Assembly (NCBI RefSeq): GCF_006345805.1
Contig: NC_043002.1
Span: 85,994,001 to 86,058,000 of the forward strand
Reading direction: 5' to 3'
Length of the DNA stretch: 64,000 bases
Source of the DNA: Octopus sinensis
Lineage: Eukaryota
Shown piece after piece: positions 3,985 to 61,596 of the stretch. Below the pieces are notes generated by a model. It did not search any database, was not told the origin of the DNA, and was given only the letters and a program-made list of their open reading frames with translations. How positions within the stretch are numbered: position 1 is the first letter of the stretch; each line of letters begins with the position of its first letter. A program made the position numbers and the translations under genes.

Positions 3985-4502
3985 ATGTACACAACACTTT
4001 GATCAGTTTGGGCTCTGATCGTCATCAGATGTCTTATTTCTGGATATTTTCATAGAACCAGATTGGATTTGAACTAAGGATATATATTTAAAATTAAGAG
4101 AAGTAACACTCTTGCCCACTTGGCCACTGATACAAAAACAAAGGAATGAGACACCTAATGACTATTGGAGGTCAAAATGATTGATGAGCTGTGTTTGTTT
4201 AATGCCCATTGTTTTCATGGACAGGGATTTATTTGGGACAGCATTTTTACATGTAGATTACACCTTTTGTGGTTCTTTTGTGCCTGATTTTCTAGTAAGG
4301 GATCTTTTATTCCACTAGACTTTGAAAGCACAGAATGGCTGGTCATAACATCAACAAAGAATGTAAACACCATATAACATTTTCACTTAGGCAGCAGTGA
4401 AAAGCAAAGCTGTGTAATATCAATATACATGCAAATACACACATACAGAAATGTACATATATACACAGATATCTAAACACACACAGACATGTACATTCAT
4501 AC

Positions 4503-4720
4503 ATCATCATCATTTAACATCTGCTTTCCATGCTGGCATGAGTTGGACGGTTCGACTAGAGCTGGTAAGCTGGAGTGCTGTACCAGGTTCCAGTCTGGTT
4601 TGGCTTGGTTTCTATGGCTGGATACCCTGCCTAATACCAGCCACTTTACAGTGTGTGCTGGGTACTTTTAATATGGCATTGACATGTGTACATTTATATG
4701 GCACTAGCACAAATGTTTTT
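4503..4720 (-). mobile_element. RTE 3'-tail fragment
   Basis: (CAT)n-TTAACATC...CATGCTGGCATG, the reverse complement of 3000-3160. Confidence 0.75.
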
Positions 4721-4901
4721 TACATGGTTCTGGTGCAGGTTTCTTGCAAATCAATCCTCTTTATCAAGAGGAGCAGCATTAACACTTCTGCTGTGGAGGA
4801 CGGATTTTCTTGACATATTTAAATAACAATATATGATGGGCTTCCACACAGTTTCTGCCTCTCAGTTTTACTTGCAAGGTATTGGTCAGTCAGAATGCAA
4901 T

Positions 4902-5115
4902 GAGCTGGCAGAACTGTTAGCATGCCGGGTGAAATGCTTAGCGGTATTTCGTCTGCCGCTACGTTCTGAGTTCAAATTCCGCCAAGGTCAACTTTGCCTT
5001 TCATTGATTAAATAAGTACCAGTTACGCACTGGGGTCGATATAATTGACTTAATCTGTGTGTCTGTCCTTGTTTGTCCTCTCTGTGTTTGGCCCCTTGTG
5101 GGTAGTAAAGAAATA
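4902..5115 (+). mobile_element. tRNA-derived SINE (gagctggcagaa...gagttcaaattcc family)
   Basis: A/B-box-like head, nested in a degraded SINE of another family. Further copies near 5305-5520(-), 15020-15210(-), 15560-15760(-), 21660-21890(-), 45585-45800(+) and 46710-46912(-). Confidence 0.75.
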
Positions 5116-5540
5116 GGTATTGGTCAATCTGAGGCTACAGTTGAAGACACTTTTCAAAGGTGACTCACAGTGGCACTTTGGGCTAGTGTTTTCTACTATG
5201 GCTCTAAGAACTTCATAATGATACAGCTATGAAGATGTAAACATCAAACCTTTTGTTGTTTCTGCAGATGAGCATAATACTCTGCAAAAATCATTATCAT
5301 ATTAATAATCCTTCCTACTATAGGCACAAGGCCCGGAACTTTAAGGGAGGTGGCTAGTTGTTTACACTGACTCCAGTGTCTGACTGGTACTTAATGTAAT
5401 GTCTCTGAAAGGATGAAAAGCAAAGTTGACCTCGGTGGGTGGAACTTGAAATCAGAATGTAAAGAGGGATGATATGCCATGAAACACTGCCTGGCATGCT
5501 AACAATTCTGCCAACTTACTGTCTTTAAGATCATATTAAT

Positions 5541-5772
5541 TGTTTCTTTATTACCCACAAGGGGCTAAACATAGAGGGGACAAACAAGGACAGACAAAAG
5601 GATTAAGTCGATTACATCGATCCCAGTGCGAAACTGGTACTTTATTTATCGACCCTGAAAGGATGAAAGGCAAAGTCGACCTTGGCGGAATTTGAACTCA
5701 GAACGTAATGGCAGACGAAATACGGCTACGCATTTCACCCAGTGTGCTAACGTTTCTGCCAGTTCGTCACCA
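5541..5772 (-). mobile_element. tRNA-derived SINE, inverted relative to the 4902 copy
   Basis: Reverse-complement similarity to 4902-5115. Confidence 0.8.
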
Positions 5773-11900: not shown

Positions 11901-13839
11901 TCAATTAATGAAGGTTTCATAATGTGATTTTCTAGGCAAATTTTTATATCTTGTTTGACCATAATCTCTAAAGTTAGTGCCAATCTGAATATGTCTCCTA
12001 TCAACAAGACTTCTAAATTGCCTAGTTTTCAATGGATGCTCTATTGGCTGTTTACATATATTAAATTCAAGCATGTGGTTGCTCATTGTTTTATTCCTTT
12101 CCTCAATATAATTTCTGTTATCGTAATCGGAATAATAATAACAATCATCATAATCATCATCGACATCTTCCACATATAATCCTTGATTGAAGTTAACTAA
12201 GCTCTTTGTAAAATTATAGGTTTCCTTTTTTAATGACTCTGCTTTGTATTTGATCTCATTAACGACTGGTCCAATCCTTCGGCCACTACATCTATCATAA
12301 ACTCCCCCATTGTAAGCATAATCTGATTCAGACTCATCAGTCTCATTACCCGCAGATGTCTCACTGTCGTCATATTTGTAATGCTTGGAATCTAGAGACA
12401 TTTCTGATGATATACTATAATCTTTAACCATTACATCATCAGAGACATCAGCAAATCTTATACTTCTAGAATCTGTTGATGCTTCTGAAGACATACTGGA
12501 CTGTTTTATTAATCTTCTCTCATACGAATCCATTGATCTAAAATTCTTGGATTCAGTAGATGTTTCTGAAGAAAAACTAGATTGTAAAGAGAATCTGTTT
12601 TCGGAAATCCCCAAAGACTTTGTATATCTGGATTCTGTGGATGTTTCTGATGACAGACTAGATTCTTTGAGTCTTCCTCTTAGACTTTTAAATGTCTCTG
12701 GTCTGCCTAACCTAGACTCTTTTACATTCCTTTTTATGCCATTATTGGTTTGTGGAGAAACTAATGTAGCTTCTTTTACTTTCCCATTTAAACCTACACT
12801 AGGCTTTTTCAATAAGGTTTTTAGATCACTATCATCAATTTTCTTTTGTTTCGTTTCATTACTTTTATCATAAACATCTGATGGTATTTCTATGATTTCT
12901 TGACTTATTCTAGACAAAATATTATGCTTCTTTTTAGGAAGTTCAAAGCTTCTCTTCCCTCCCATTTGCCAAAATGTAGATATTTTTCCATTCAACATTG
13001 GTAATTTCCTTCCAGAAGGAAGAAGCTTACTTTCCCAACTATTTCCTGAATGAAAAGTTTTACAATCTACTGCTGACTTTATTTCTTTTGAAGTATCCTC
13101 TGTTTGTTTTTTATCTGTCTCCCTGTCATCCTGATTACTGTCCCCTGAATGTGTTGGGGAAATTGTTTTCTCATTAACAGACACCTCCTCTTCTATTTCA
13201 ATAAGAGAATTATTTTTATGACTTTCCAGTAACTTCTGTCGACGCAATGAAGTACTAGTAACAGTATCTTCATAGTGTCCATTTCCTACCTTTGCTTTAG
13301 GCAGTGGCTGTGGAGCAGCTGCTGGCATTGGGGTTGGTGCCTCACTGGTGTTGTTGGTGATAGTGGCAATAGGCGTGCTGGCAGTAATGACATGGCTTGT
13401 GTTTGCTGATACATTTGGTGAGAAATTTGTTGTAGGATTTGTCTTTATGTCATTCAACTTGATATTACTACTACTACGAGTAGTAGTAGTGGTAGTAGTA
13501 ATACTGGTTACAGTACTGTTGTTGTTGTTAGAAGAAGTGCTAATATCTGTTGTTGGTGTTGTGGTAGTGGTTGTTGTTGTTGGTGTTGCAGTTGAATATG
13601 TAGGAGAAACTGCAGCTGACAATGGTGAGGTAGTTGTTACAGGGACCATGCCTTTTTCAGTGTAAATCATCACAGTAGGTTCTGGTCGTGGAGTTCTCTT
13701 CAAAGTAGACTTTCCTTTTGCAGTGATCTCTGCAATTAAATCAGCACTAGAGCTTCCAGTGGAAGCATTTGGAATTGATGCTCTGCTCGGACTGTTCATT
13801 TTAGCTTCGTTGACAGTGAAACCCAGTGAATTTCTGGAA
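11901..13839 (-). CDS. read-through form of WH2 exon: alternative terminal exon with long Ser/Lys/Glu-rich C-terminus
   Basis: Uninterrupted 632-aa ORF in AT-rich DNA, stop at 11901-11903, AATAAA on the minus strand at 11789-11794. Confidence 0.7.
13290..13839 (-). CDS. ESPN: espin/forked-like gene, WH2-domain exon (spliced form)
   Basis: Acceptor tttttatcttttaaag, phase 2, matching the previous exon. ADLIAEITAKGKSTLKRTP is WH2-like (compare espin LLAEIKAGKSLKPT). A phase-0 donor AAG|GTAGGA at 13290/13289 matches the phase-0 exon at 6045. The donor position is inferred. Confidence 0.7.
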
Positions 13840-16800
13840 CTTTAAAAGATAAAAATAATTAACAGTAAAGCAAAAGCACATGAAAACAATGACAAAAAAA
13901 AAACAATGACAAAAAAGAAAAGCAATTCCAAAAAAAACCTTGAAAATATCTAAAGAAATTGTTGTATTAATGTTGTAATAGAAATAAACATGAATAAATG
14001 AAAGAACATGAGGTAAATAACTCTAAAGGAAGCTATAATGAAGTAGTTAACTTTAAAAAAGATAAATATTAATGCTCTAAAATGCAACTTTTGCAGGAAT
14101 TTGTTTCTTCTTATGGAATAGAAGACATCTTGATAACTGTGAGAGAGTTCAAAGGGTAAATAAAAATGTTTTGAGTAAGTGAATAACTCTGATTATATAA
14201 ATCAAACAGAAGAAAATTGATGAAAAGACACTTGCTGTCAGGTGGAAAATTTTTTAAAATCTATTTGAAGTCTTCAAACTGAACTTTACCAACTATAAAT
14301 CTCAAACTTCATCTTTGGCCACAAATTAGTATGTCAAAGACATTGAAATGACAGGAAAAAAAAAGATGTAAAATAAGTAAATAAATAAATAAAACAGTAA
14401 ACACAATTACAAGCCTTTGTTTTTTCATTTTCTTTGAGAAATTTTAATATTATTTATTACCTAAGATTACAGAAATAATAGAGAATAAACATTTCTTTCC
14501 TGGTACCAGCAAAGGAATCAACCACATTTAAAAGTTCAAGAGTTTTTTAAAAAAATAAACACAATAAAAATACAATAATTTTATCCTAGAACAACTAAAT
14601 TTAAATGAAACTGAAGAATAAATAATTATAAACAAATATACTTTTTCTAATTTCATATTCCAACTTTATGAATATATATATACAGTAAGAGAGCCAGCAA
14701 GGAATGGTAAAAGCTATACTTCCACTGACAATGGTTAAGAATCTGGAATTGCTTGACCAGAGAATAATGTTAGTTAACTGTAATATTTTTTGCCTAATTA
14801 CCTAATTTAATCTTAATTATTTGATATTTTCTATTACTGGAATATCAAGGTTCAATTTGAATAAACTAGAAAATGTATGTGGCTCTGAAGAAGGCTGAAG
14901 GTTCTTAACCATAGATGTTCAGATTATACTCAGATTAGAAAATTTGAATGGTGCAAAATATGACATATTTTGCTTTTAGTTTAGTACTAACTTCGGGTTA
15001 CATAATATTTGTTTCTAACATAGGGATTCAAATGTGGAAGGTGGATATAGCCAGTTAAGTCAATCTCAGTACTCAACTGGTACACATTTTATCAACCCCA
15101 AAGGGATGAATAGCAAAGTTGACCACAGCAGGATTTGAACTCAGAGCATTGAGATATGTAATTTAAATACCACAAAATATTTTGTGCCATTCAACTGATT
15201 CTGCCACTATTCTTATATTCTCAACCGTCCATCTTTTCTGTCCACTATTCCTGGGAGGGTTGTTGAAGTGGAATTCTCAGGTACCTCCTCTATAGGGTCC
15301 TATCAGTAGCAACAGTCTTTCCAGCTAGATTCCCAAGTGTCCCCAGCAGAGACTAGTGAGACTATTCTATGGATATTAACAATAATAACACTAACAAAAT
15401 TGGTGTCCAATAACTAATAAGAATTACAATTAATACAATATAAAATAGAAGAAACTAAATATTAAAAAAAATATTTTCTTTTCTAAAACCTAATTATTGA
15501 TAAAACACTTAAAAACCATAATCATTAAACTAATAATAATGATAATAATGCTTTCAATTTTGCCACAAGGGCAGCAATCTGGGAGGAAAGGATGAGTTGA
15601 TTACATCAACCCCAGTCTTCAACTGGTACTTATTTTACTAACCCCGAAAGGATGAAAGGCAAAGTCAACCTTGGCGGAATTTGAACTGAGAACAGTGACA
15701 GGCGAAATACTGGTGAGCGTTTTGCTCGGCATGATAACAATTCTGCCAGCTCACTGCCTAAAGAATAATAATAATAATCATCTTCTACACTTTCAGTTCA
15801 GGAAAACCTAAATAGAATACATCAATACAATCATTCTTACAAGATTAATGTATATTTATGAATAAAAAAAACAATATTTGAATAAGTTTGAAACATACCA
15901 AAGATATTTACCAAGACATATCAAAATTATAAACACATTTCTATGGGTATATAATATGAAAAGATAAAATACCCACGAAGAAAAAAAAACAAAATATACT
16001 GAAAATTACAGGATTAAGCATATTTTTTTTTTTAATTAAGAGTTTCCTCATAAAATTTGTTAAACCAATTTCTATCTAATATTTTCAGAAAAATGTGTAA
16101 TATTGTTTGCAAATTATCCATCACCATCAAATTTTTCCATTTTCCTCACATGACAATTTTTCCATTTTCCCCACATTTTCTTACTATACAAAGTAATACC
16201 ACTAAATTGTAAGAAATATATTTTTTAAAGAATTTCGCACATGGTTTTCCCACATAGTGCTTATTAGAACTTGTCACCCTTCACCCTGGTATAAGTTATC
16301 TAACTATAATTCATAGTTCTTAAATATGTATTAAAAAAAGAAAGAAATGTATGAAAAATGATAGGTGACAAATTAACATTTACTAATGAAGGGGTGAAAT
16401 AATATCAATATTAGCCAATGACCAATATTATTTTCATTTCTTTGGTAAGTATGGAAGACAACTCAAGACATATTTTGGCCTTATTCTGACTTCCTCCAGA
16501 AGATTAGCCTTTACTGTTCTTGTTGAAGTAGCATGATTTAATTTGAAAATATTAAGATGTCAATAATTAAACATTGCAATTTAATATGGCACTTTACCAT
16601 TTCTGCCGCTCTGTCAAACCATAGATATACCAAATATTGATTTTTAACTTGGGTGCAAGTTTGAAGGATGGTATATAGTTGATTATATATATCAACTGAA
16701 GTACTTCATGGACAATTTATTTTATTTACTACAGAAAAAGATAAGGCTCATGTTATTTTTAAGAATTAGAAAGTGTAGTTCATTGACTCTGTATGTTATT

Positions 16801-32830: not shown

Positions 32831-33230
32831 ATGATATGTATTAGAACAAATTAAATATATGTGTGCATGTGTATGACTATGTATGGCACACTCAAATGTC
32901 TCATGTTTATAGATAAAGGAAAATAATCATGTTTACCTTCCTGATGTGAATTAGAGATGTAAGTGAAATGGTTACAGCTGGAGCTTGAATTCAAAGCTAA
33001 ATTATAAATTTAGCTCTCCAAAAACTTACTTCAAGACTATACTGTGACTTTTATAATCACATTGTAAATATCATCACTAAATAATGGGGAGTTGAAAATA
33101 TATGAATGTATATGCATTTAATGAAGATATGCTTAATAATGATGTTTTTGTTGAAATTTTATGATAATTGTTAGTTGAAAACAAAACAGAAAATTTTAAA
33201 AGAAAAGAAATTTAAAAGGTATATATCTAC

Positions 33231-34284
33231 CTTGATTTGGACAATGACGGTGCAGTTCTGTTTACTTCGCAAGCAGCAGACATGGGAGAGGATGATGATG
33301 GTAAAGAATGTTGAAAGAGAGGAGGTGGAGGCAGCGGAGGCGGCGGCGGAGGAGGAGGTGGTGGAGGTGGTGGCGGCGGTAGGTCATCAGTATCACTTTG
33401 CATAGAGAGGCTGTCAGTGTCCTGTGATGATGAAAAGCTTTTCTCCAGCTCTTCAATAAGAGACTGTGGTGGTGGTGGTGGAGGAGGTGGCGGCGAAGGA
33501 GAACAGCCCATTTCTCTACTTGGGTTACTTAAGTGTAAGTATTTGGGCATGTCTGAAGTCATTCGAGCAATCTCCTCCTCTTCTTTATCAAAGTGACTTG
33601 GCAGCTTCTCAGCATTGGCTTCTGAGAGTTTCTTGGAACCCACTTGGATGGAGGTTGTATAGTTATTATTAATTTTACTAATTTGCACAGGATCCATTTT
33701 TCGAGCAAACTTTTTATTTATCTGGATTTTCTCAATAGATGAACGCCCACTACAATCTCCTTTGCTAGACCAGGAATAGAAGTCTTCAGAACCTTCTATT
33801 GGACGGCTACGATAGTCAGAAGATGGAAGGACCTGTGAAGGATTCATTTTTTGACCTGGAGAAGTGGAAGAATGTTCTGCATCTTGCTTGTCATCTTCAG
33901 CAGCATTCAATGAACTCGAAGTCGATGGCTGATTACTATTGGAAGCTCCTGGAATTATCGCAGATTTCTCTGCTAAATATGGGAAGCTGAATGGGGCAGG
34001 TGGTGTTGGTGGAGGAGGAGGTGTTGGTGGAATAATGTTTGTTGTTAGTGGGGGCAAAATTCTCACTGCAGAAGCTGGTAATGAAATCGTATGTGCTGGC
34101 AAGCTGGCTCCAATGCTCAGAGAAGCAGAATTGTGGGGTGATGCAGAAGGAGACGAGGAGGAGTTGAAACTTACACACGTTGAGTGACGGTTAGAGCGAG
34201 ATGAAGAAGTCTTCCAATAAGAACTGGCTGCTGGTGGAGGTGGAGGGGGTGGTATTGACGACGACTGTTTTATGTGTTCTGCAA
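33231..34284 (-). CDS. ESPN: espin/forked-like gene, proline-rich exon
   Basis: ORF 33227..34300. Acceptor tattttatctcag (alternative AG 6 nt downstream, same phase), donor AAG|GTAGAT, phase 1/2. Four polyproline tracts including DDLPPPPP. Confidence 0.85.
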
Positions 34285-34681
34285 CTGAGATAAAATACAA
34301 CTGCGTGTTAGATACTGAAAATTTGATAATTCATCTGCAAGTTAATTGGGAAATAATAGCAATGATAATATTACATAATGATGAACAGCTTGAGGAATAC
34401 TGTTTCAATATTATGCATTGATAATTAATAACGTAACATAAATAATTTTTTTTTACATTTGGAATATTGATTTTTTTTGCTATTTATTTTAACATTTGTA
34501 TTAAATGGGATTTATATAATTTGAAAAGGATTTAAATTTTACATATAAAACCATTAAATAATAATATAAAAAATAATTTCGAAATGTAGAAATTATAGGT
34601 ACAGATCCTCTATTCCTAGAATGAACAGTTGGATGTTACATGTATATGCATGTACATCTGTATGCATAGGTACATATATAG

Positions 34682-45172: not shown

Positions 45173-45805
45173 TTTGCAATAGATTTGTGATTTAAATAGT
45201 CCTGATCGAAATATCTGCTCATCTTAATTCAGTACTAACAACATAATAATCCAAAAGATGAACTCATATGGACTAATACAATATGGATTTAATGAGAAAA
45301 CAACATATATTTCCAAAGTAATTAAACTAATACATACAACAAGACCGCACCCATTACATAATGAAGACCACTTTTTTGTCATTAACTAATGAAATAATAA
45401 TAAATGTAGTCAAATGAAATATGTAAGTCAATCTATAACAATGAAGATTAAAATTATATTGGTTATCATGACAATAAAAGAAGGAAGTAACCTTAAATTA
45501 AGAGATAAGAATCGTCAATTGATTAGCTATCTTTTCAACTGAACAATATAAAAAAATTCATTTATTTGATTACCTATATCTTAGGGTGGTGAGCTGGCAG
45601 AAACTTTAGCATGCCGGGCGAAATGCTTAGCAGTATTTCGTCTGTCTTTATGTTCTGAGTTAAAATTCTACCAAGGTCGACTTTACCTTTCATCCTTTTG
45701 GAGTCGATAAATTAAGTACCAGTTGCATACTGGAGTTGATCTAAGCGACTGGCCCCCTCCCCCGAAATTTCAGGCATTGTGCCTAGAGTAAAAAAGATTA
45801 TCTAT

Positions 45806-46317
45806 TGTAGTAAAGATTGTTTGCCAACATGACATTGCAGTCCTGGTTTAAGATGAATGTTTCTGTAATTTAGCCCCAGGAGACATTATCTCCAGCTGGC
45901 TATACAACACGATCTGTGTCCTTATATTTTCAAACAAGGGAATCTAGCATCCCCACTCTGGGGAAAAATTTGGACTGGTATTTGAAGAAGATATAGATAA
46001 TCTCACTATTTCTAAATCTCACAACATGAGATATTGAGCAACAGTGCTGTGTAGTAAAGATTGTTTGCCAACATGACATGGCAGTCATGCTAGATTCCCT
46101 TGTTTGAAAATATAAGGACACAGATCGTGTTGTATAGCCAGCTGGAGACGATGTCTCCTGGGGCTAAATTACAGAAACATTCATCCTAAAACAAGACTGC
46201 CATGTCATGTTGGCAAACAATCTTTACTACACAGCACTGTTGCTCAATATCTCACATTGTGAGATTTAGAAATAGTGAGATTATCTATATCTTCTTCAAA
46301 TACCAGTCCAAATTTTT
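45806..46317. repeat. 244-bp structured unit: partial tandem plus inverted permuted copy
   Basis: 45806-45842 is repeated at 46050-46086. 46087-46317 is the reverse complement of the unit. Confidence 0.9.
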
Positions 46318-47382
46318 GCTTTGTAATAGAAGGGCAGAGTTAAATGATTTGATCTTATTATATCATGTATTTTCCATACATAATTTACATTCATTTTGCC
46401 ATCATGCTAGCAAATTTAAATGCTCTTACTCCATGATGGCGTTCCCAAAACTAATCCTTTAAAATATAATAAGCAGTGACCCTGTTGTCAGTCAAGTACA
46501 TTGAGAAAAACTGAGTTATGTAAATAGAATTGGGAAATAATGTAATGAGTTGTGGATCTAAGTGACAATAAGGTGACAAAGTAGTTACAACAAATGAGCT
46601 GAAGTGGGAATCATTTGCAGAAAACCGAAGGAAATAATTACAACTGTACAAGTAGTAGAGATGATAAAGAGAATTTCCAGGCCAATTGTAGATCAGCTGT
46701 AAACTATTGGTTTGAAATTTTGGCCCAAGGCCATCAATTTTGGGATGGGGATAAGTTGATTACAGCAACACCAGTCTCGACTGGTACCTATTTCATCAAT
46801 CCCAAAATGGATGAAAGGCTAAGTCAGCCTTGGTGGGATTTGAACTTAGAATGTAAAGATGGATGAAATACCAGTAAACATTTTGCCCAGTGAGCTAATG
46901 GTTCTGCCAGCTATGAAATATTTGTGAATGAATGTCAGTGCATCAAGTTGTGTGTGTTAGAGGGAGAGAGCAGGAGTGAGAGAGCGATGGGAAGACAATC
47001 CAGGCTGTGTAAGTAGTCATGGGTCAGTCATGAGCCTTTGAAATCATAAGGTTACACCTTATTCTGGTTTCCAAGTTATATAAGTGACCAAGAGTACAAT
47101 ACACCCTATTGAATGAGATACCAGTCCGTTATATGGTTAATTTCCTGCTGTTGCAGGTACTCATTTTCAGCTCAGTGGACTGGAACAGTGTGAAATAAAG
47201 TATTTTGCTCAAGGAAACAATGTATAGAGAGTCTGCATTTCCTCAGGTTTGAATAATGTCTGACAGCCCTGTTGCCCTGGAAATTTAGACAGATTTTGAC
47301 AGTTTTAAGTGAGTATGCATAAACCTTCAAAATTTTCAAAGCTAAACAACAACATGCAATGAGTATAATTTCACTTCAAAGT

Positions 47383-59311: not shown

Positions 59312-59807
59312 AGGAAGCATCGATGTTTCCTAGGGCTATATAGCGGTGGTGTAATTCCCTCTACGAGACTGTCACGTTATGTTGACTTTATACAACCACT
59401 CTATCACTCCACCACCGCTCGTGTCTCTTTGAGACATTTAGAAATTCAATATTTCTAATTATGGTGACCAGTGAATAGATTTCAGTGTAAATAGATAAAT
59501 TTGCGAAGGTTTGGCAAGTATCACCACTAGCGGGGACTCGCTACCCTGGATTGATGACGGACAAGACCCAGAAACATGCATGTCTTCAGGTTGCTAGTCC
59601 TAGCTGGTGGGGGTGCTTGCCTCCCCTTTGCAAATATAAGGACACAGGAAATGTGTCAAAGCCGACAGGAAGTGTCAATGCTTCCTAGGGCTATATAGCG
59701 GTGGTGTAATTCCCTCTACGGGACTGTCACATTATGTTGACTTTATACAACCACTCTATTGCTCCACCACCGCTCATGTCTCTTTGAGACATTTAGAAAT
59801 TCAATAT
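59312..59807 (+). mobile_element. retrozyme-like element: 355-bp unit (1.4 copies) containing a hammerhead
   Basis: 59312-59452 is repeated at 59667-59807. A hammerhead lies at 59545-59590 and the unit has many hairpins. Confidence 0.7.
59545..59590 (+). ncRNA. type I hammerhead ribozyme (slightly mutated)
   Basis: CCTGGA-TTGATGA-CGG(ACAAGAC)CCA-GAAA-CATGCATG-TC-TTCAGG: 6-bp stem I, palindromic stem III, GUC triplet. C3 is replaced by U and stem II has one mismatch. Confidence 0.65.
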
Positions 59808-59843: not shown

Positions 59844-60149
59844 GTCTCCTCAACTTTATCATCTAGGTCAAATATTATTTGACCAAAGGTTATTGATTAG
59901 AAATAATGTTTCTGATCAATAGTCTTAGTTCAAATGTTTGACTTATTTGATTAAAAAGCTGTTAATGTTGAACAAATAAATGACAACAATTGATCAGATT
60001 GAACCACCTGATGAATGTCCAGAGAAGTGACAAGAAACGATCGTAGTGGATATCTTAATTATATTTAATTTATATAAAATTTTTTATGTATTGGATTAAG
60101 TCTTTCTTTGTTTGATTTGCATAATAGTGGTTTTGTCTCTAATTAATAT

Positions 60150-60180
<31 letters not shown>

Positions 60181-60535
60181 TTATATATAAATATATATAT
60201 AAATATATATATAATTATATATAATATATAATTATATATATAATATATATAATTATATATATATATATATGTATATATATTAAAATATAAAATAATTTTC
60301 TATTATACCAAGAAATTACAGACTTCATAAAGCATATATAATATATTATTATTAGGTTAAAGGTGTCTCCTCAACTTTATCATCTGCATAATTAACTAGG
60401 TCAAATATTATTTGACCAAAGGTTATTGATTAGAAATAATGTTTCTGATCAATAGTCTTAGTTCAAATGTTTGACTTATTTGATTAAAAAGCTGTTAATG
60501 TTGAACAAATAAATGACAACAATTGATCAGATTGA
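59844..60535 (+). repeat. ~160-bp direct repeats (period ~521-533) bracketing a hammerhead; Penelope-pLTR/retrozyme-like
   Basis: 59844-60002 recurs at 60365-60535 with a 12-nt insertion. Confidence 0.8.
60004..60049 (+). ncRNA. minimal type I hammerhead ribozyme
   Basis: CCAC-CTGATGA-A-TGTC(CAGAGAAGT)GACA-A-GAAA-CGATCG-TA-GTGG. The core is canonical, stem III is palindromic, and there is an A.A mismatch at the base of stem II. Confidence 0.75.
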
Positions 60536-61229: not shown

Positions 61230-61596
61230 AGTGCCTGTATTTCAAAGGGTCAGCTTTGTCACATTCTGTGTCATGCTGAATTTTCCTGTGAACTACATTA
61301 AGGGTATATGTTTCTGTGGAGTGCTTAGCCATTTGCATGTTAATTTCATGAACAGGCTGTTGTCTTGATGGCATGGAGAAATGGATTTAAAAATAATTGC
61401 GTGTGAATAAAACTGGCACTCCATCAGTTATGATGATGAGGGTTCCAGTTGATCAGATCAAGAGAACAGCCTGCTCATGAAATTAACATGCAAATGGCTA
61501 AGCACTCCACAGAAACATATACCCTTAATGTAGTTCACAGGGAAATTCAGCATGACACAGAATGTTTCAAGGCTGACCCTTTGAAATACAGGCACT
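61230..61596. repeat. inverted pair of SINE bodies (~120-bp arms)
   Basis: 61230-61351 is the reverse complement of ~61465-61596. Same family as the 17170 SINE. Confidence 0.85.

What the first reader, a model, noticed from the sequence alone, without database searches (positions are those of the whole stretch)
45806..46317. 244-nt ribozyme-less relative of the 355-nt unit, with co-varying hairpins
Seen: four collinear blocks are shared between 46087-46317 (plus the unit junction) and the 355 unit. (1) gtggggatgctagattccctt vs gtgggggtgcttgcctcccctt. (2) TTTG(A/C)AAATATAAGGACACAG..GTGT(T/C)..AGCC..GGA..TCCT(G/A)GGGCTA (46103-46166 vs 59627-59693), with stems GGAGAC/GTCTCC vs GGAAG/CTTCC. (3) gactgccatgtcatgttg vs gactgtcacgttatgttg. 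(4) a hairpin followed by ATTTAGAAAT. The hammerhead arm is absent from the 244 unit. Inference: a family of small structured mobile RNAs whose conserved non-ribozyme module may be the recognition signal for a helper reverse transcriptase, or an unrecognised RNA motif. I do not recognise it as a described family.
Basis: partly seen in the sequence, partly recalled or inferred. Interest (0 to 1): 0.85.

Follow-up and report, generated by a model that had tools for sequence, protein, structure and literature searches.

The report
Truncated retrozyme insertion with copied flank
The supposed ribozyme-free 244-base RNA is one scrambled, shortened copy of an abundant ~352-base mobile repeat whose fuller copies carry a hammerhead ribozyme motif, joined to 41 bases of its own neighbouring DNA; the hairpins it shares with the 355-base unit are real, recur in at least four related families, and likely guide a borrowed Penelope-type reverse transcriptase.

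Summary
The shared blocks are real (z = 18, 0 of 1000 shuffles), but there is no ribozyme-less family. The 244-nt period exists at this locus only. It joins 5'-truncated pieces of a ~352-nt repeat (family A) to 41 nt of single-copy host flank, copied in inverted form, inside an 11-bp target-site duplication. Of 29 other family A loci, 14 carry an intact type I hammerhead motif upstream, and full A is collinear with the 355-nt unit (family B) end to end. These are non-LTR retrozymes. What survives is the module: families A-D (A-C 54-60% identical) share one predicted fold, with 15 of 27 pairs changed on both sides. All four end at two preferred sites 46-59 nt apart, with inverted 5' copies: the Penelope-like 'tail' signature. 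That is locus-level evidence that Penelope-like machinery inserts retrozymes. No helper element was found among the Penelope-like lineages checked, Rfam hammerhead models do not match, and cleavage and expression are untested. The scan noted similar Penelope-like palindromic stumps in another genome. Verdict: new member of a known kind.

The parts
45590..45805 (.). High-copy host repeat (SINE-like; the label is recalled) into whose end the element landed
   Evidence: Summed contig depth 2e5 to 1e7 over 45576-45795 in four runs; other matches in the window
45795..45805 (+). Left copy of the 11-bp target-site duplication AGATTATCTAT
   Evidence: Identical to 46278-46288; 17 of 20000 random flank pairs share an 11-mer
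45806..45958 (-). Inverted 5'-truncated piece of family A (unit positions ~156-309), ending at the 'short' 3' site
   Evidence: 16 of 20 inverted left pieces in A end at 300-315
45959..45963 (+). 5-nt filler TGGGG, complement of 45951-45955; likely a self-primed fold-back of the cDNA end
   Evidence: Sequence; mechanism inferred
45964..46004 (-). Inverted copy of the 41-nt right-hand host flank 46277-46317; this makes the apparent 244-nt unit
   Evidence: Exact match over 45964-46013 / 46268-46317; only 2 places in the genome; depth doubles over 46280-46323 in runs X3 and X6 but not X2
46005..46089 (-). Inverted copy of the element's own 3' part (46192-46276)
   Evidence: 3 differences in 126 nt including the flank copy; shares private variants with the plus piece
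46087..46276 (+). Main 5'-truncated piece of family A retrozyme (unit ~165-352); no hammerhead because of truncation; ends ~9 nt before the modal 'long' 3' site
46116..46131 (+). Hairpin H1 (GGACAC / GTGTY); stem nearly invariant across families, so no covariation support
   Evidence: Folds; not in the RNAalifold consensus
46135..46166 (+). Hairpin H2 with internal loop
   Evidence: 4 of 9 pairs change on both sides, 98-100% of cells paired
46172..46245 (+). Multibranch domain P3 holding hairpins H3a and H3b (46198-46215) and the short 3' site (~46231)
   Evidence: 7 of 8 closing pairs change on both sides; end mapping
46250..46264 (+). Hairpin H4 in the 'tail' between the two 3' sites
   Evidence: weaker support, 82% of cells paired
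46277..46317 (+). Single-copy host flank, beginning with the right target-site duplication (46278-46288); not part of the element
   Evidence: contigs of organisms B, C and D run from about 46250 on to 46700
59312..59807 (+). Family B retrozyme, partial tandem with period 355
59546..59589 (+). Type I hammerhead motif of family B with palindromic stem/loop III; this copy has U3 opposite G8, most family copies have C3
   Evidence: Motif scan; no Rfam hammerhead model hit

Best explanation
The stretch is a single insertion of 5'-truncated pieces of a ~352-nt hammerhead-motif repeat (a non-LTR retrozyme) plus an inverted copy of 41 bases of its own flank, likely built by a Penelope-like reverse transcriptase/endonuclease acting in trans. 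SHOWN: piece order, target-site duplication, single-copy flank, hammerhead motif in fuller copies, two preferred 3' ends, and a shared predicted fold with compensatory changes in four families. INFERRED: (1) a tandem transcript or circle is bound by the helper protein through the conserved 3' module; (2) the target is cut on both strands 11 bp apart; (3) one nick primes cDNA at the short internal site (unit ~309) and the other near the long site (~352-361); (4) both cDNAs stop in the G-rich arm before reaching the hammerhead; (5) the right-hand cDNA folds back and copies 85 nt of itself plus 41 nt of flank, the left-hand cDNA folds back for 5 nt, and the ends are joined. Step 5 produces the one-off 244-nt period.
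For: Flank single-copy. Other copies stop matching at query 190-210 and continue upstream into a hammerhead (14 of 29 intact). Full A and B are collinear over ~350 nt, z 26. 11-bp duplication; boundary repeats of 11-14 bp at 9 of 30 A loci. Outward 3' ends: A, 20 of 30 right ends at 360-364 and 16 of 20 inverted left ends at 300-315; B, 22 of 30 right ends at 361-364, 4 of 30 at 302-308; C, 13 of 38 at 304-314 and 19 of 38 at 357-359; D, 11 of 34 at 299-304 and 17 of 34 at 356-368. The non-family G at 46277 is in both the junction and its inverted copy, so the copy was made from the finished junction. In the first 30 of 3674 pattern matches, 11 have an intact and 5 a decayed hammerhead at -87 to -100, and 14 have none (background 0 and 10 of 300); by eye those 14 are cut off by flank or an inverted piece. 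Penelope-like elements show 5' truncation, partial tandems, an inverted 5' copy and a tail at one end (PMC8557442; PMC3846280); the purified protein cuts and extends both strands and starts at two internal sites (PMC11167929). The genome holds intact RT + GIY-YIG frames of 775-883 aa.
Against: No helper found: the ends of the Penelope-like lineages sampled do not match the module (best z 2.6 in 20 tests). The tail here is 46-59 nt, against 30-40 bp in the papers. No Rfam hammerhead model hits at E up to 1, so the ribozyme call rests on motif, spacing and stem pairing. Flank copying was seen at 1 of 30 A loci (this one), so step 5 has no replicate. Divergence between pieces (6 of 145 vs 3 of 126) cannot date the flank copy. 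Long-end counts in C and D are partly selected because the queries ended there. Covariation rests on about five lineages, and the structure came from the same alignment. Of 7 further copies folded singly, 1 recovered all helices, 5 some and 1 few.
Confidence: 0.85

Rival explanations
1. One reading: a true 244-nt ribozyme-less RNA family that moves or circularises on its own unit.
For: A 244-nt period is present on the minus strand. The shared blocks are significant.
Against: The unit-specific 41 nt occur only here and continue into host DNA in three other organisms. They begin with the target-site duplication. No hammerhead-less sense tandem was seen among 29 other A loci or 30 unselected pattern loci (by eye). 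Fold z -1.5.
Confidence: 0.02
2. The insertion is as described, but the inverted copy of the 3' part plus flank arose later, by replication template switching or repair at the palindrome, not during integration.
For: Seen at 1 of 30 A loci. The middle piece is slightly closer to the plus piece (3 of 126) than the left piece is (6 of 145). Such a copy would also carry the G at 46277.
Against: The copy sits exactly at the inversion centre where both cDNA ends would meet, next to a second small fold-back (45959-45963). The divergence difference is too small to mean anything. Depth doubling in two other organisms shows it is shared.
Confidence: 0.15
3. The conserved 3' fold serves RNA stability, circularisation or a host protein, not recognition by the helper reverse transcriptase.
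For: No match to any Penelope-like end sampled. The whole unit, not only the 3' part, keeps its fold. Retrozyme circles are predicted to be highly self-paired in general (PMC7229834).
Against: Both preferred 3' ends lie at homologous places inside and just after this module in all four families. In the green anole element the region holding the start sites is required for activity (PMC11167929).
Confidence: 0.3
4. The inverted duplication is an assembly artefact.
For: Palindromic Penelope-type insertions are hard to assemble (PMC8557442). No listed contig spans the whole stretch.
Against: The copies differ at 3-6 sites, including CpG-type changes. Depth over the duplicated flank doubles in runs X3 and X6.
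Confidence: 0.02

Closest known systems
Metazoan non-LTR retrozymes (Cervera and de la Pena 2020, PMC7229834; mussel units of ~350-390 bp)
   Same: Non-coding units of ~350-375 nt, GC under 50%, type I hammerhead motif with palindromic stem/loop III, partial tandems, thousands of first-look candidates per family, target-site duplications longer than 4 bp, strongly self-paired predicted fold.
   Different: In the sections read, no mollusc other than mussel, no cross-family conserved 3' fold, no mapped insertion ends and no inverted copies are reported. Cleavage and circular RNA were shown there and are untested here. Copies here are mostly truncated monomers and dimers.
Endonuclease-bearing Penelope-like elements: pLTR, inverted 5' copy and 'tail' (PMC3846280, PMC8557442); two-site internal initiation by the green anole Poseidon protein (PMC11167929)
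   Same: 5' truncation, partial tandems, an inverted copy lacking the tail, two 3' ends downstream of the hammerhead, target-site duplications near 10 bp, AT-rich or microsatellite targets.
   Different: No ORF. The tail is 46-59 nt rather than 30-40 bp, and duplications are 11-14 bp rather than 8-10. No autonomous partner sharing the sequence was found.
Retrozymes as non-autonomous Penelope-like derivatives (Li, Clavereau, Pollet 2026, bioRxiv 10.64898/2026.07.22.740005)
   Same: Same conclusion about the helper class.
   Different: That work uses co-occurrence and pLTR homology in vertebrates; 24 of 57 Xenopus families had a TE homolog. Here the evidence is the insertion footprint itself, and no pLTR homolog was found.

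Membership tests
Non-LTR retrozyme | Type I hammerhead motif in the unit | tested here: met
   Core, stems I-III and cleavage triplet in 14 of 29 other A loci and 26 of 30 B loci, and in C and D. The window's own A copy lacks it through truncation. Rfam models do not hit.
Non-LTR retrozyme | Short (150-450 bp) non-coding unit in tandem copies | tested here: met
   Periods 351-352 (A; L007, L026), 355 (B), 356 (D); head-to-tail junctions in all four families. No long arrays among the loci fetched.
Non-LTR retrozyme | Target-site duplication longer than 4 bp | tested here: met
   11-14-bp boundary repeats at 9 of 30 A loci and 4 of 30 B loci, microsatellite matches not counted.
Non-LTR retrozyme | Self-cleavage and accumulation as circular RNA | not testable with these tools
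   Needs in vitro transcription and northern blot or RT-PCR.
Penelope-like mobilised element | Inverted 5'-truncated copy at the 5' end | tested here: met
   20 of 30 A and 12 of 30 B loci begin with an inverted piece; also in C and D.
Penelope-like mobilised element | Optional 3' tail: two preferred 3' ends | tested here: met
   Two end clusters in A, B, C and D; spacing 46-59 nt, longer than the 30-40 bp in print.
Penelope-like mobilised element | Sequence shared with the pLTR of an autonomous partner | tested here: inconclusive
   No match in the lineages sampled; sampling was partial (best hits of three searches plus ten fetched regions).
Autonomous Penelope-like element | RT + GIY-YIG open reading frame in the element | tested here: not met
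   The 60 longest of 73 open frames around A/B loci and in the window were scanned; the RT and GIY-YIG hits lie outside the elements.
   2 matches, both in the window.

The most novel reading that the evidence does not exclude
These retrozymes are an old lineage of small circular RNAs, not recent pLTR deletions. They keep a conserved ~180-nt fold as a structure-encoded loading and two-site start signal for a Penelope-like reverse transcriptase whose own ends look nothing like it: an RNA parasite that recruits a telomerase-related enzyme by shape.
Probability: 0.3. Interest if true: 0.7.

Novelty: new member of a known kind. Interest (0 to 1): 0.4.

Why it matters
The headline claim, a ribozyme-free relative, fails and should not be pursued. 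What remains is useful to specialists. How animal retrozymes get back into the genome has been inferred from co-occurrence and homology; here four families carry the Penelope-like insertion footprint at mapped positions. They also share a co-varying RNA fold around both start sites. That gives a short, defined template and specific stems to mutate in the existing in vitro Penelope-like assay, making the question of what RNA feature this enzyme recognises directly testable. The locus also warns that palindromic insertions can fake a tandem unit.

Tried and rejected
Helper search. Penelope-like loci were collected with an endonuclease found beside a B copy, Pfam GIY-YIG, ten fetched regions and a second endonuclease type. 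None had the module at its end. Module hits in L118, L128, L159 and L229 are separate retrozyme insertions nearby (L159 and L118 read). Five element ends versus four families gave best z 2.6; a short resemblance I saw by eye in the 781-aa element's end is not significant. Coding remnant: reading the module by eye from the hammerhead ATG gave different frames and early stops in A and B; rejected. Empty allele: laying runs X2, X3, X6 and X12 showed none; organisms B, C and D carry the 3' junction, organism E covers the right flank poorly, and 196 joints were not shown. Expression: no RNA holder listed; no conclusion. Rfam: nothing at gathering score; at E up to 1 only microsatellite- and palindrome-driven microRNA-type hits. 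Breadth: the module pattern gave 6 metagenome hits and 0 viral hits; none scored convincingly with the model (best 13 bits). A hand-made helix table (191 of 216 cells paired) had register errors in three helices and is not relied on. A genome-wide scan with the structure model was not done, so distant families and a remote helper end remain open. Paper search for C3U/G8A found nothing.

Full report
Verdict. It is a one-locus by-product of how a hammerhead-bearing retrozyme was inserted. The conserved hairpins are real and extend to at least four families.

Setting. The window lies at G000:C6:85994001-86058000 in a 2.72-Gb animal genome. That it looks like an octopus genome is my guess from size and composition; no call shows it.

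Anatomy of the locus. Self-comparison and mapping to real family copies give, left to right: the end of a high-copy host repeat; an 11-mer at 45795-45805; an inverted piece of the unit (45806-45958, unit ~156-309); 5 nt of filler; an inverted copy of 41 nt (45964-46004); an inverted copy of the unit's last 85 nt (46005-46089); the plus piece (46087-46276, unit ~165-352); then the same 11-mer at 46278-46288, which starts the 41 nt at 46277-46317. Read on the minus strand this gives a 244-nt period once. The 11-mer is identical on both sides, and 17 of 20000 random flank pairs share an 11-mer.

The 41 nt are host DNA. A search with 46268-46400 returns 2 matches in the genome: itself and the inverted copy. 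The other 39 best family places match query 1-190, at most 1-210. Contigs from organisms B, C and D run from about 46250 on to 46700 with 0, 1 and 7 differences. Depth over 46280-46323 is about twice the flank depth in X3 (85.9 vs 43.8) and X6 (10.1 vs 5.26), but not in X2. No empty allele was seen.

The family has a hammerhead motif. Upstream of the shared part, other copies carry a type I core with five paired bases in stem I, a short stem II and a palindromic stem/loop III. It is intact in 14 of 29 other A loci and in 26 of 30 B loci. Tandem junctions give a period of 351-352 nt. Full A and B align end to end, z 26.4, 0 of 1000 shuffles; the window piece versus B gives z 18.2; the 41 nt versus B give z 1.0. 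Hammerhead-less copies are routine. A pattern for the shared core gives 3674 exact matches and 0 for the reversed control. Of the first 30 along contig C1 (five pairs come from the same insertion), 11 have an intact and 5 a decayed core at the expected distance and 14 have none. By eye those 14 are cut off by flank or an inverted piece. Against the ribozyme call: no Rfam hammerhead model matches, at gathering score or at E up to 1 on five loci.

More families and one fold. Exclusion patterns and chance neighbours yielded variants A2 and B2, family C, a C variant and family D. First-look candidate counts are 2281, 2758, 3342 and 2741 for A-D; these are not copy numbers. Majority sequences of A, B and C are 54-60% identical, yet fold independently into the same layout, as does a real D copy: a small hairpin, a long rod with the hammerhead at its tip, H1, H2, a multibranch domain P3, and H4. 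On a sequence-only alignment of 17 copies (4 each of A-D and one C variant, chosen from the loci held), RNAalifold predicts 27 pairs. 94.1% of cells pair and 15 pairs change on both sides. 0 of 500 shuffles reach the covariation score and 5 of 500 reach the pair count; slid controls pair 35-46%. Limits: about five lineages; the structure came from the same alignment; H1 hardly varies; and of 7 further copies folded singly, 1 recovered all helices, 5 some and 1 few.

Penelope-like footprint. Outward-facing 3' ends fall in two clusters in every family. In A, 20 of 30 right ends are at 360-364 and 16 of 20 inverted left ends at 300-315. In B, 22 of 30 right ends are at 361-364 and 4 at 302-308; of 12 inverted left ends, 4 are short, 4 long and 4 elsewhere. 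In C, 13 of 38 ends are at 304-314 and 19 at 357-359; in D, 11 of 34 are at 299-304 and 17 at 356-368. Long-end counts for C and D are partly selected by the queries. Boundary repeats of 11-14 bp occur at 9 of 30 A loci. This matches the description of Penelope-like insertions: truncation, partial tandems, an inverted 5' copy and a tail at one end (PMC8557442, passages; PMC3846280, passages). The purified green anole protein cuts and extends both strands and starts at two internal sites that bound the tail (PMC11167929, parts 1-2 of 4). The tail here is longer than the 30-40 bp in those papers.

Mechanism. Shown: the pieces, the duplication, the ends and the conserved pairing. Inferred: a staggered 11-bp cut; priming of both strands at the two sites; early stops in the G-rich arm; fold-back of the right-hand cDNA through its own junction into 41 nt of flank; and joining. 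The pieces share private variants, and the non-family G at 46277 is present in both the junction and its inverted copy, so the copy was made from the finished junction. Whether this happened during integration or later cannot be dated. It is seen at 1 of 30 A loci. I put the whole at 0.85. That the module is the enzyme's recognition signal is about 0.6; a role in RNA stability or circularisation is the main rival.

Helper. The genome holds intact RT + GIY-YIG frames of 775, 781 and 883 aa. None of the element ends sampled matches the module by BLAST, profile HMM or covariance model, and 20 shuffle tests gave a best z of 2.6. Sampling was partial, and no genome-wide structure search was done. 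Family D and the 781-aa lineage both carry a U3-A8 core. That variant is already reported from a schistosome Penelope-like family (PMC4209133, passages), so it is a lead only.

Comparison with print. Non-LTR retrozymes are described from coral, mussel and axolotl, with Penelope-like elements proposed as the helper (PMC7229834: passages, results part 1 of 3 and discussion). A 2026 preprint links vertebrate retrozymes to pLTRs by co-occurrence and homology (10.64898/2026.07.22.740005, parts 1-3 of 5). Searches (listings) showed no paper on cephalopod retrozymes, on a conserved non-ribozyme fold, or on tails in retrozymes. I opened no supplements, and Repbase and Dfam could not be searched; these families may be curated there. 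One earlier scan note (e1-7858806, another genome) reports similar palindromic Penelope-like stumps; it led me to PMC3846280 and was not tested here.

Scores. Observation partly confirmed; interpretation partly supported; new member of a known kind; interest 0.4. Most novel reading: a shape-encoded start signal with no pLTR counterpart, probability 0.3, interest 0.7 if true.

Noticed in passing
L167-L186 (family D), e.g. L170:1501-1856: Young family (96-98% identity among the 40 best places) with a U3-A8 hammerhead core in nearly all copies read; the 781-aa Penelope-like lineage has the same core variant and the same palindromic loop III.
   Followed up: partly
L157:2221-4563 (+): Intact 781-aa RT + GIY-YIG frame (Neptune-like by recalled motifs); many copies score identically, so the lineage looks recently active. 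A 320-aa frame overlaps it upstream.
   Followed up: partly
L159:1945-4269 (-) and 4179-5018 (-): Intact 775-aa Penelope-like frame preceded by an overlapping 280-aa basic frame without a Pfam match; a two-frame layout, as in L157.
   Followed up: no
L159:6290-6430 (+) with inverted copy 5490-5660: End of another element with a hammerhead-like motif whose stem II is unusually long.
   Followed up: no
L217-L241: Very abundant Penelope-like lineage (35761 first-look candidates) whose 3' region contains an internal microsatellite before a hammerhead-like motif.
   Followed up: partly
L191, L192, L212, L193, L198, L204, L214, L196, L211: Further divergent subfamilies of the same retrozyme superfamily, with different palindromes in stem/loop III.
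   Followed up: partly
L195-L196 (G000:C1, about 15115000): Adjacent tandem units belong to two different D-type variants (different stems II and III), which suggests template switching between related RNAs.
   Followed up: no
window 11904-13841 (-) and 33230-34330 (-): Stop-free frames of 646 and 367 codons with no Pfam match.
   Followed up: no
window 59845-60000 and 60365-60535: Local direct duplication of about 170 nt just right of the family B element (seen).
   Followed up: no
window 61300-61500: Inverted repeat arms about 60 nt long around a short spacer, resembling a miniature inverted-repeat element (seen).
   Followed up: no
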